Positions 13,884-14,558 of a DNA stretch of 64,000 nucleotides are shown piece by piece (the first letter of the stretch is position 1; each line of letters opens with the position of its first letter). The notes beneath the pieces are model-generated. The model was not told the origin of the DNA and did no database searches. It saw nothing but the letters and a program-made list of their open reading frames with translations. A program made the translations under genes and the position numbers. The DNA is from Escherichia coli (GTDB lineage Bacteria; Pseudomonadota; Gammaproteobacteria; Enterobacterales; Enterobacteriaceae), in the NCBI RefSeq assembly GCF_003790525.1, contig NZ_CP033635.1. One strand, given 5' to 3'.

Positions 13884-14174
13884 ATGAGAATGACTAGGCA
13901 CAAAAAACAGATTCTTGAACTCTACAAACCTGAGTATCGCGATTGGGTGCGGGTGGAGGCCGGAGATCCGCCTTTTGATGTTCGTGGTGTGACAGTGCTG
14001 CTCTATGGTTCCGAATATCGGCGATATCACATAGAGGCAACACGAAGGACGCTAAACGCTATGGTTCGTGATAAGTTGCTGGAGCGTGTGAAAGTCCGTG
14101 AGCCACGTTTTGATGTGCGTATTGGTGGCGATGGTGCGCATTGCACGGTAATCCGCTATGGCCTGGTAAGGTAA
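13884..14174 (+). CDS. Hypothetical protein, 96 aa, basic
   Basis: Clean ORF (GTG start) with an upstream GGAG. No recognisable family. Confidence 0.4.
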   Translation: MRMTRHKKQILELYKPEYRDWVRVEAGDPPFDVRGVTVLLYGSEYRRYHIEATRRTLNAMVRDKLLERVKVREPRFDVRIGGDGAHCTVIRYGLVR

Positions 14175-14276
14175 GCCATCGGGTAAATCAGATGATTAAA
14201 TCACCAGAATGTAAATTTACATTCTGCCAGCCACCAGCTACCCTCCTCAAAATTGAGGACCCTTTTTATCAACTGG

Positions 14277-14558
14277 TTACCGCCGCAACCGTTCCGGCTT
14301 CTTCCACTGATAAGTGTTTTTCGCGCTCTCCTGATACATCGCCACGCGTCGACGGTATGCCAGCAACTCTAGTACTCTGATTCGTATGTCGCGCATATCC
14401 ACGCCGTTAAGCTCAATACCATCACGGCGCATTACATCAGCAACAACACGCACATAATTTTCGGCGGTCACGCTGTCCGGCTGCGTGGCCTGTTCGTCAT
14501 GCTGCTGGCTGATTCCGGTAACGCGGCGGATTAATCCCAGTAGTTCGACTTCTGTCAT
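14277..14558 (-). CDS. Hypothetical protein, ~93 aa (MTEVELLGLIRRVTGISQQ...)
   Basis: The ORF-track version (159 aa) reads through the cos copy. The internal Met at 14558 is the plausible start. Confidence 0.4.
   Translation of the reverse strand: MTEVELLGLIRRVTGISQQHDEQATQPDSVTAENYVRVVADVMRRDGIELNGVDMRDIRIRVLELLAYRRRVAMYQESAKNTYQWKKPERLRR

What the first reader, a model, noticed from the sequence alone, without database searches (positions are those of the whole stretch)
13884..14558. Two small uncharacterised genes lie between the PerC-like gene and the cos/terS module and may be helper-interference or defence cargo
The divergently oriented 96-aa (13884-14174) and ~93-aa (14277-14558) proteins have no recognisable family. 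They lie directly beside the packaging signals. In PICIs and P4-like satellites this neighbourhood often holds proteins that hijack helper packaging (Rpp-like or Ppi-like) or small anti-phage modules. The ORF-track version of the second gene reads through cos copy A, but the MTEVELLG start just inside cosQ looks more plausible.
Basis: inference. Interest (0 to 1): 0.5.

Follow-up and report, generated by a model that had tools for sequence, protein, structure and literature searches.

The report
Two conserved satellite-island end genes
The two small genes are real but are not obvious anti-phage weapons: one is the conserved last gene of the packaging operon of E. coli phage-satellite islands, and the other is a small DNA-binding regulator with its own palindromic site that marks the edge of the island's variable cargo slot.

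Summary
Both ORFs exist at the stated coordinates and are under purifying selection. They converge tail to tail; they are not divergent. The neighbouring "terS" is RppA: the island is a close relative of EcCICFT073 inserted in tqsA.

orf93 (14277-14558, minus strand) belongs to PHROG 1561/7271. The MTEVELLG start is confirmed. It is present in 1296 of 5426 complete E. coli genomes and is the last cistron after Rpp, TerS, DUF1441 or TerL in four PICI types. Its EcCICFT073 homolog is clone c1505, one of nine clones of which only c1503 blocked lambda. That homolog lies inside a deletion that leaves the island transferable. No fold or family match was found, so its function remains open.

orf96 (13884-14174, plus strand) is rare in E. 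coli (43 genomes). It has homologs at 42-59% identity across Enterobacterales. The AF2 model is a winged helix. A 32-bp palindrome (13841-13872) abuts the start codon in 39 of 39 loci, and sequence beyond it is unrelated between loci. That slot holds SoFic and candidate defence genes in relatives, and a second PerC gene here.

The two genes frame the known 3' cargo hotspot; neither looks like cargo itself. The find is modest.

The parts
13884..14174 (+). orf96: 96-aa winged-helix protein, a putative transcription regulator. It is a short form of a 115-130 aa enterobacterial family.
   Evidence: ORF with an AAGGAG Shine-Dalgarno sequence. RefSeq CDS. AF2 pLDDT 84.8, four helices plus a long beta hairpin. 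Foldseek hits to Fur DNA-binding domain, YodB, TFIIE, RTP and PadR winged helices. 136 homologous clusters. dN/dS 0.06-0.27.
13841..13872 (.). 32-bp imperfect palindrome CTTATTGTATGACAGTACTGTCCCACAATAAG. It is an operator-like site that abuts and overlaps the orf96 Shine-Dalgarno sequence.
   Evidence: Found by the repeat finder. Present immediately 5' of the start in 39 of 39 loci from Escherichia to Proteus. Most columns are 80-99% conserved (minimum about 50%) against roughly 20-50% in the 40 nt upstream, with almost no covariation. It occurs once in the window.
14277..14558 (-). orf93: 93-aa helical protein with an invariant C-terminal Y-x-W-K-K-P-x-x-x-R-R tail. It is the terminal cistron of the PICI packaging operon and a homolog of EcCICFT073 c1505.
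   Evidence: PHROG 1561 match 1-93 of 93, E 1.4e-54. 78% aa identity to the CFT073 gene. 1296 of 5426 E. coli genomes. Last gene after TerS, TerL, DUF1441 or Rpp. dN/dS 0.15-0.38. AF2 pLDDT 76.5.
14205..14269 (.). Convergent intergenic region with two hairpins. One is the perfect palindrome CAGAATGTAAATTTACATTCTG (14205-14226). The other is TCCTCAAAATTGAGGA followed by a T-run (14244-14269). It is probably a bidirectional terminator region.
   Evidence: Terminator-like site. RNA fold z-score -3.9 on the plus strand.
13467..13769 (-). PerC#1: a second PerC-family gene of the island, divergent from orf96. It occupies the cargo slot.
   Evidence: Pfam PF06069, E 7.6e-23. RefSeq CDS. 50.6% identical over 77 aligned residues to the backbone PerC#2 at 17352-17744. 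Absent from EcCICFT073 at this position.
12435..14266 (.). 1.83-kb accessory segment absent from EcCICFT073. It holds orf96, PerC#1 and two small RefSeq ORFs (12795-13115 minus strand, 13206-13409 plus strand).
   Evidence: blastn of the window against the CFT073 island. The flanks 12318-12434 and 14267-15400 match at 94% and the interior does not.
14592..14667 (+). cos copy A, equivalent to cos2 of EcCICFT073. On the plus strand it has the lambda order cosQ-cosN-cosB. The cosQ-like element is at 14593-14605 and cosN is GGGCGTCGACCT at 14623-14634.
   Evidence: Motif positions. The equivalent cos lies inside the c1504-07::cat deletion of a transferable island (PMC6739421).
14838..15272 (-). 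rppA, the redirecting-phage-packaging protein, not terS.
   Evidence: 95.8% aa identity to c1503. PDB 6hlk RppC, E 4e-32.
15330..15404 (-). cos copy B, equivalent to cos1. It is inverted relative to copy A.
   Evidence: 65 nt at 97% identity to copy A in reverse orientation. The reverse complement of cosN lies at 15362-15373.

Best explanation
The window carries an EcCICFT073-type phage-inducible chromosomal island inserted in tqsA (about 12.3-23.6 kb). The two genes form the conserved frame at its 3' end.

**orf93**
- It is the last cistron of the late packaging operon (capsid, decoration, cos1, rppA, cos2, orf93).
- It is a small helical protein. Its only strongly conserved feature is a basic C-terminal tail, Y-x-W-K-K-P-x-x-x-R-R.
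- I infer that it is a docking or adaptor protein made together with the packaging-specificity protein, and that it acts on something common to all helpers or on the host.
- It is dispensable for lambda- and phi80-mediated transfer, and its homolog was among the clones that did not inhibit lambda.

**orf96**
- It is a winged-helix transcription factor.
- I infer that it binds, as a dimer, the 32-bp palindrome that abuts and overlaps its own ribosome-binding site. That would autoregulate it and control the divergent promoter of whatever cargo sits in the adjacent variable slot. Here the cargo is a second PerC gene.

**Shown:** gene reality, distribution, positions, fold class, and conservation of the palindrome with a sharp boundary.

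**Inferred:** DNA binding to the palindrome, control of cargo, and the adaptor role of the orf93 tail.
For: **Island identity**
- RppA is 95.8% identical and the major capsid protein 95% identical to EcCICFT073. The gene order is the same. There are two cos sites.

**orf93**
- Full-length PHROG 1561 match.
- Present in 1296 of 5426 genomes at 1550 places.
- Terminal gene after lambda-type TerS, after cf-PICI TerS plus TerL with a 13-nt gap, after DUF1441 with a 2-nt gap, and after rppA plus cos2.
- Short forms of 61-69 aa (PHROG 7271) keep the same tail across genera.
- Purifying selection.
- PMC6739421: c1499-c1507 were each cloned in pBAD18 and only c1503 reduced lambda plaques. Primer mapping shows the c1505 clone carries the whole homolog in the sense orientation, and that c1504-07::cat removes it.

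**orf96**
- AF2 winged-helix model, pLDDT 84.8.
- Foldseek top hits are winged-helix DNA-binding domains.
- The invariant motif T-R-R-T-L-x-A-M-V-x-D lies in the predicted recognition helix.
- The palindrome is present in 39 of 39 loci with a sharp loss of conservation upstream.
- Left neighbours are unrelated between loci. About two thirds are divergent. They include SoFic (L018, L032) and PDC-S13 (L044).
- An orf93-like ORF occurs in 25 of 33 loci that carry an orf96-like gene.
Against: - orf93 has no fold or family match beyond uncharacterised PHROGs, so the adaptor role is only an inference from its position and tail.
- The pBAD18 test covered lambda. Only c1503 was reported against phi80 and HK97. 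Activity against other phages is therefore not excluded.
- The Foldseek E-values for orf96 are weak (0.01-0.5, TM about 0.5).
- The palindrome can also form an RNA hairpin that occludes part of the Shine-Dalgarno sequence.
- No convincing sigma-70 -35/-10 pair was found around it.
- In roughly a third of loci the left neighbour is co-directional rather than divergent.
- The 96-aa E. coli form lacks the roughly 25-aa C-terminal extension of most homologs.
Confidence: 0.55

Rival explanations
1. One reading: one or both proteins are helper-interference factors (Rpp- or Ppi-like, binding helper TerS) or small stand-alone anti-phage effectors carried as cargo.
For: The position is beside cos and rpp, at the 3' end where PICIs are reported to carry immune systems. 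Both proteins are uncharacterised. orf96 is rare and lies within a segment absent from EcCICFT073.
Against: - The orf93 homolog c1505 was among the clones that did not reduce lambda plaques, and it is dispensable for transfer.
- orf93 is conserved backbone across four packaging types, not variable cargo.
- Neither gene hits PADLOC.
- Neither gene resembles Rpp or TerS.
- orf96 has a DNA-binding fold and a dedicated palindrome.
- The Rpp function is already supplied by the neighbouring gene.
Confidence: 0.12
2. orf96 and orf93 are a functional pair, a repressor and its anti-repressor. Induction of the late operon would produce orf93, which would bind orf96 and release expression of the cargo slot.
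For: A convergent orf96-like / orf93-like arrangement recurs in 23 of 33 loci across genera, and both genes co-occur in 25 of 33. orf93 has a conserved peptide-like tail suited to protein docking.
Against: In E. coli, orf93 is in 1296 genomes. orf96-type genes are in only about 158 (43 plus 115). orf93 therefore usually has no orf96 partner. Co-occurrence can be explained by both genes belonging to the same island backbone.
Confidence: 0.13
3. The conserved 32-bp palindrome is not an operator for orf96. It would instead be an mRNA hairpin that controls translation of orf96, or a recombination or boundary site at which cargo cassettes are exchanged.
For: The palindrome folds as an RNA hairpin that includes the first bases of the Shine-Dalgarno sequence (z-scores down to -4.6 in relatives). 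Homology between loci ends exactly at its outer edge.
Against: Pairs show sequence conservation rather than compensatory change. There is one double change among 28 distinct sequences, and positions 9/24 and 10/23 are persistently mismatched. The window's own hairpin is not more stable than shuffles (z -0.86). No recombinase is associated with it.
Confidence: 0.15
4. The ORFs are chance or decaying reading frames with no function.
For: They are small and annotated only as hypothetical proteins.
Against: dN/dS is well below 1 for both. Both keep intact length in dozens to over a thousand genomes. Both are conserved across genera.
Confidence: 0.02

Closest known systems
EcCICFT073 c1505, the hypothetical protein downstream of rppA/cos2 (Fillol-Salom et al. 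2018, 2019)
   Same: 78% aa identity to orf93. Same length, same start and same position after rppA and the inverted cos copy.
   Different: In EcCICFT073 it is the last gene before the island end. Here it is followed by a 1.83-kb accessory segment containing orf96 and PerC#1.
Rpp proteins (RppA/B/C) of Gram-negative cos PICIs
   Same: Same island type, same operon, and small size. orf96 also has a winged-helix-type fold.
   Different: No sequence relation for either gene. The true RppA is the neighbouring 144-aa gene. The orf93 homolog was among the clones that did not block lambda (PMC6739421).
Small winged-helix autoregulators that accompany mobile defence or cargo loci, such as BrxR/CapW-type regulators (comparison from my own knowledge), and MarR-, PadR- or HxlR-type repressors with palindromic operators
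   Same: orf96 has a predicted winged helix, a palindromic site at its own 5' end, and divergent variable neighbours that include defence genes.
   Different: orf96 has no WYL or ligand-binding domain and is only 96-130 aa. It has no detectable sequence homology to those families. DNA binding is untested.
P27-family small terminase (PF05119)
   Same: A single protein (P0278) joins a P27 TerS N-terminus to the orf93 tail. Both proteins have an L-T/N-x-x-D motif.
   Different: hhalign probability is 0.2%. The chimera is a cf-PICI that has lost terL between terS and the orf93 homolog.

Membership tests
PHROG 1561 / 7271 (uncharacterised PICI or prophage protein) - orf93 | Full-length match to the family profile | tested here: met
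   phrog_1561, residues 1-93 of 93, E 1.4e-54. phrog_7271, residues 38-93, E 2e-7. Short homologs hit phrog_7271 at E 5.5e-26.
Rpp (redirecting phage packaging) - orf93 and orf96 | Sequence homology to RppA/B/C, with an N-terminal Nu1-like DNA-binding domain | tested here: not met
   There are no Rpp or Nu1 hits for either protein or its family profile against PDB sequences. The neighbouring 144-aa gene does hit 6hlk.
Rpp (redirecting phage packaging) - orf93 | Expression blocks lambda reproduction; required for island packaging | not testable with these tools
   Published data on the 78%-identical homolog apply. The c1505 clone was one of nine, of which only c1503 reduced lambda plaques. The c1504-07::cat island, which lacks the homolog, is still used as a transferable island (PMC6739421; mapping).
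Winged-helix DNA-binding regulators - orf96 | Helix-turn-helix followed by a beta-hairpin wing | tested here: met
   The AF2 model has helices at 5-12, 16-26, 33-41 and 47-62 and strands at 66-75 and 85-94, with pLDDT 84.8. The best Foldseek hits are winged-helix domains, with weak E-values of 0.01-0.5.
Winged-helix DNA-binding regulators - orf96 | Cognate palindromic operator near its own promoter | tested here: inconclusive
   A conserved 32-bp palindrome lies at the 5' end in 39 of 39 loci. Binding by orf96 has not been shown.
Known anti-phage defence systems (PADLOC 2.0) - both genes | Match to a model of a known or candidate defence protein | tested here: not met
   No families at E <= 1 for orf96, orf93, PerC#1 or the two small neighbouring ORFs.
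P27-family small terminase (PF05119) - orf93 | Profile similarity to Terminase_4 | tested here: not met
   No Pfam hit. hhalign against a cf-PICI TerS gives probability 0.2%.
RgdR / DUF4222 regulators of E. coli PICIs - both genes | 99-aa basic protein with RGD at residues 20-22 (ECs1581 / C1493) | tested here: not met
   C1493 is the DUF4222 gene next to the primase gene, with RGD at residues 20-22. The window's homolog is a different gene at 20261-20548.
EcCICFT073-type cos PICI (the island as a whole) | int, alpA, replication module, PerC, capsid and decoration homologs, rpp flanked by two cos sites; inserted at a specific site | tested here: met
   RefSeq feature table of the near-identical locus. 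Comparison with CFT073.

The most novel reading that the evidence does not exclude
orf96 and its 32-bp palindrome may form a portable cargo-slot controller shared by PICIs across Enterobacterales. It would be a minimal winged-helix repressor that keeps whatever gene lands in the 3' hotspot silent until the satellite or a helper phage is active. That cargo can be SoFic, PDC candidates, restriction genes or PerC. orf93 would use its invariant YxWKKPxxxRR tail to dock onto a host or helper machine, or onto orf96 itself, linking late-operon expression to that switch.
Probability: 0.2. Interest if true: 0.55.

Novelty: new member of a known kind. Interest (0 to 1): 0.35.

Why it matters
orf93 is one of the most widespread uncharacterised genes of E. 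coli phage satellites. It is in about a quarter of complete genomes, with up to six copies per genome, and always sits at the end of the packaging operon whatever the packaging strategy. A conserved role there would be a gap in the current PICI model.

The orf96 gene with its palindrome gives a sequence landmark for the inner edge of the PICI 3' accessory hotspot across Enterobacterales. That landmark could be used to mine satellite-borne defence and virulence cargo, and to ask how such cargo is regulated.

For this window, the practical result is a corrected annotation. The "terS" is RppA, the island is EcCICFT073-like, and the two genes are frame genes, not cargo.

Tried and rejected
**Homology and fold searches that found nothing**
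- PDB sequence searches with single sequences and with profiles gave nothing meaningful for either gene. The SAKe and Kelch hits for orf96 are repeat artefacts.
- Pfam, NCBIfam and PADLOC gave no family for either gene.
- Foldseek of the orf93 model against PDB and BFVD gave no match with E < 0.4.
- tblastn of orf93 against 50,697 GenBank phage records found no match. The family is specific to satellites and prophage-like islands.
- A full HMMER scan of 1.84 billion representatives with orf93 found only 38 hits, mostly fragments of the same family. Single-sequence search missed the short forms. They were later found by position and by a family HMM.

**Ideas considered and rejected**
- orf93 as a diverged P27-family TerS. 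This was prompted by the chimera P0278. It is rejected because hhalign probability is 0.2% and the chimera is a terL deletion in a cf-PICI.
- orf93 as RgdR, which is described as 'encoded by all E. coli PICIs'. This is rejected because RgdR is the DUF4222 protein.
- ncRNA in the region. Rfam finds nothing in the window.
- Extra copies of the palindrome or its half-sites in the island. There are none beyond chance.
- A YxWKKP-like tail in the two lambdoid prophages of CFT073. None was found.

**Self-correction and an open point**
- My early reading that more than 1000 genomes carry the whole PerC-orf96-orf93 block was wrong. Only about 43 genomes do, and the rest carry orf93 alone.
- I could not determine whether 'hypothetical gene 1792' of EcCIEDL933, whose mutation severely reduced cf-PICI transfer, is the orf93 homolog. 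It may instead be the small gene between HNH and terS.

Full report
**1. What is in the sequence**

ORF listing shows a 96-aa ORF at 13884-14174 on the plus strand, preceded by AAGGAG. It also shows an ORF on the minus strand ending at 14277. Its longest version starts at a GTG at 14756 (159 aa) and contains an internal ATG at 14558 that gives 93 aa.

The window differs by about one base over 13400-15400 from three complete E. coli chromosomes. RefSeq annotates exactly these two CDSs there, 291 nt and 282 nt, as hypothetical proteins.

The two genes converge, with stops at 14174 and 14277. orf96 is divergent from the PerC gene at 13467-13769.

**2. The context is an EcCICFT073-type PICI, and the "terS" is RppA**

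The annotated locus shows an island of about 11.3 kb inserted in tqsA. Its genes are integrase, AlpA, Icd-like, DUF4222, RepA helicase, SSB, PerC, a lambda-gpE-like capsid protein, a gpD-like decoration protein, a 144-aa gene, orf93, orf96 and a second PerC.

- The 144-aa protein matches the solved RppC structure (6hlk, E 4e-32).
- It is 95.8% identical to EcCICFT073 c1503, which is RppA. The capsid protein is 95% identical.
- The prototype island in CFT073 has the same order and ends with a 93-aa gene after rppA.
- The two cos copies are inverted relative to each other and flank rppA. Copy A is at 14592-14667, with cosN GGGCGTCGACCT at 14623-14634. Copy B is at 15330-15404. They share 65 nt at 97% and differ on their cosB sides.
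- This is the published cos1/cos2 arrangement (PMC6092414, PMC6739421).
- The orf93 start lies 34 nt beyond the cosQ-like element, not inside it.

**3. orf93 is conserved backbone with unknown function, and its homolog has been tested**

*Family and start codon*
- The 93-aa product matches PHROG 1561 over its whole length (E 1.4e-54).
- In other islands, homologs begin at the same Met 2 to 13 nt after the preceding stop. The short start is therefore correct.

*Distribution*
- Megablast finds the gene in 1296 of 5426 complete E. coli genomes, at 1550 places and up to six per genome.
- It is absent from GenBank phages.

*Position in other islands.* Sampling the hits shows it is always the last gene of the packaging operon, whatever that operon is:
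- after a lambda-type TerS;
- after P27-TerS plus TerL in a capsid-forming PICI;
- after a DUF1441 protein;
- after rppA plus cos2.

*Selection and conservation*
- Pairwise dN/dS is 0.15-0.38.
- Outside E. coli the family exists as 61-69-aa short forms (PHROG 7271). They keep one helix, a G-x-x-L turn, a second helix, and an almost invariant C-terminal P-A-Y-Q-W-K-K-P-x-P-R-R.

*Structure*
- AlphaFold gives a three-helix model with pLDDT 76.5.
- It has no significant neighbour in PDB or BFVD.
- No sequence or profile hit was found in PDB, Pfam, NCBIfam or PADLOC.

*Published experiments on the homolog*
- Fillol-Salom et al. 2019 cloned c1499-c1507 one by one in pBAD18. They report that only c1503 reduced lambda plaques.
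- I mapped their primers on the CFT073 sequence. The c1505 clone spans the entire orf93 homolog in the sense orientation.
- Their marked island c1504-07::cat deletes everything from just after the rppA stop to the island end. That includes cos2 and this gene. The island is nevertheless used as the transferable element.
- The homolog was therefore among the clones that did not inhibit lambda, and it is not needed for lambda- or phi80-mediated transfer in the laboratory.

**4. orf96 is a winged-helix regulator with a dedicated palindrome at the edge of a variable slot**

*Distribution*
- A single-sequence search found only 17 close relatives.
- A weak tblastn hit in Klebsiella phage ZX1 allowed a profile search. 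That search recovered 136 protein clusters. The more distant homologs are 46-57% identical to orf96 and mostly 115-130 aa. They come from Salmonella, Yersinia, Erwinia, Pectobacterium, Klebsiella and others.
- In E. coli the gene is rare. It is in 43 genomes. A 55%-identical 128-aa paralog is in 115 more.
- dN/dS is 0.06-0.27.

*Fold*
- AlphaFold on a 45-sequence alignment gives pLDDT 84.8, with four helices and a long beta hairpin.
- The best Foldseek hits are winged-helix DNA-binding domains, including Fur, YodB, TFIIE, RTP and PadR. E-values are weak.
- The invariant T-R-R-T-L-x-A-M-V-x-D motif lies in the helix that would be the recognition helix.

*The palindrome*
- A 32-bp imperfect palindrome lies immediately upstream at 13841-13872 and overlaps the Shine-Dalgarno sequence.
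- I fetched 32 further loci from GTDB species genomes and several from metagenomic and genomic contigs. The element CTTATTGTA[T/G]GATAGnnnCTATCC[C/T]ACAATAAG is present at the same place in 39 of 39 loci.
- Most of its columns are 80-99% conserved (minimum about 50%). The 40 nt upstream are at background, roughly 20-50%.
- Paired positions show conservation rather than compensatory change. That favours a protein-binding DNA site over an RNA structure, although an RNA hairpin is possible.
- The palindrome occurs only once in the window.

*The variable slot*
- To the left of the palindrome the genes are unrelated from locus to locus.
- About two thirds of the nearest ORFs are divergent from the regulator.
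- They include SoFic-type Fic proteins (L018, L032) and PDC-S13 (L044). Within 2.8 kb there are also PD-T7-4, a type II restriction enzyme, HEC-06 and others.
- In the window the slot holds a second PerC-family gene and two small ORFs. The whole 12435-14266 segment is absent from EcCICFT073.
- This agrees with published statements that PICIs carry immune systems at their 5' or 3' ends (PMC11364771) and that the regions flanking the packaging module are variable (bioRxiv 10.1101/2025.02.11.637232).

**5. Relation between the two genes**

A family HMM finds an orf93-like ORF in 25 of 33 loci that carry an orf96-like gene. In 23 of them it lies 0.35-3.5 kb downstream and convergent. The pair is therefore an old, conserved frame of the island's 3' end.

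The reverse does not hold in E. coli. About 88% of orf93-bearing genomes have no orf96-type gene. An obligate partnership is unlikely.

**6. Most likely working model**

- *Shown:* both are real, selected genes. orf93 is the terminal cistron of the packaging operon in many PICI types. orf96 has a winged-helix fold and a co-conserved palindrome at a sharp boundary between conserved and variable sequence.
- *Inferred for orf96:* it binds the palindrome, represses itself, and controls the adjacent cargo promoter.
- *Inferred for orf93:* it is a small adaptor whose basic tail docks on a partner common to all helpers or to the host. It is made late, together with the packaging-specificity protein.
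- *Rivals:* interference or defence effector; repressor/anti-repressor pair; RNA hairpin or recombination site. These are given with their evidence in the rival explanations.

**7. Comparison with known systems and novelty**

- orf93 is the same gene family as EcCICFT073 c1505. It is known and has been handled experimentally, but it has never been characterised.
- orf96 belongs to the very broad class of winged-helix regulators, but to no described family.
- The use of a conserved regulator plus palindrome as the inner flank of the PICI cargo hotspot resembles regulators that travel with defence loci. That is a functional analogy only, drawn from my own knowledge.
- I found no paper describing either protein. 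Absence from the searchable library is not proof.
- Overall this is a new member of known kinds. It is useful for annotation and for mining, and it is not a surprise.

**8. Verdict**

The coordinates and the short start are right. The orientation, the "terS" label and "no family" need correcting.
The hotspot is real, but the two genes are its frame, not its cargo.
- Interest is 0.35.

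Noticed in passing
It is 95.8% identical to EcCICFT073 c1503 and matches the RppC structure 6hlk at E 4e-32.
   Followed up: yes
window 14592-14667 and 15330-15404: The two cos copies are inverted relative to each other, and their divergent cosB sides both face rppA. Inverted cos sites would in principle allow packaging to start in either direction. That could matter for lateral transduction of flanking chromosome.
   Followed up: partly
window 13467-13769 and 17352-17744 (both minus strand): The island carries two PerC-family genes, 50.6% identical over 77 aligned residues. 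One is in the backbone position after SSB. The other is in the 3' cargo slot, divergent from orf96. PICI PerC homologs have been reported to activate or silence LEE (PMC11773190).
   Followed up: partly
window 20261-20548 (minus strand): This DUF4222 gene is the homolog of RgdR (ECs1581 / C1493), a published regulator of type III secretion and motility. The window's copy has PGD instead of the functionally important RGD at residues 20-22.
   Followed up: partly
window 12366-12391 and 23567-23592: A 26-bp direct repeat, AATTAACTACACCATTAACTACACCG, lies near both ends of the island. It contains a tandem ATTAACTACACC unit. These are probably integrase arm-type sites or att-flanking repeats.
   Followed up: no
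L006 6440-6760 (E. coli island with the 128-aa orf96 paralog): Four copies of a repeat of about 25 bp, GGGCT(C/T)CA(G/A)TTGCCC(A/G)(A/G)AGA..., lie between the orf96 paralog and the backbone PerC gene. They look like iterons or binding sites. They are not present in the window.
   Followed up: partly
L010 6001-6228: This is a degenerate capsid-forming PICI. The P27-type terS is fused in frame to the last 25 codons of the orf93 homolog, and terL is deleted. The junction falls at a shared Y-R-R-R.
   Followed up: yes
L002 13158-15374: In islands at the yejO / tRNA-Pro site, a 2.2-kb stretch between the orf93 homolog and a DUF1441 gene has no annotated gene. It contains a cos-like segment (L002 14363-14438) and copies of sequence found near the window island's left end.
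   Followed up: partly
L017 7081-7512 and L019 6595-7026: In Yersinia and Pectobacterium islands, a 143-aa gene of unknown function follows the orf96-like gene on the same strand, before the convergent orf93-like gene. It has no counterpart in the window.
   Followed up: no
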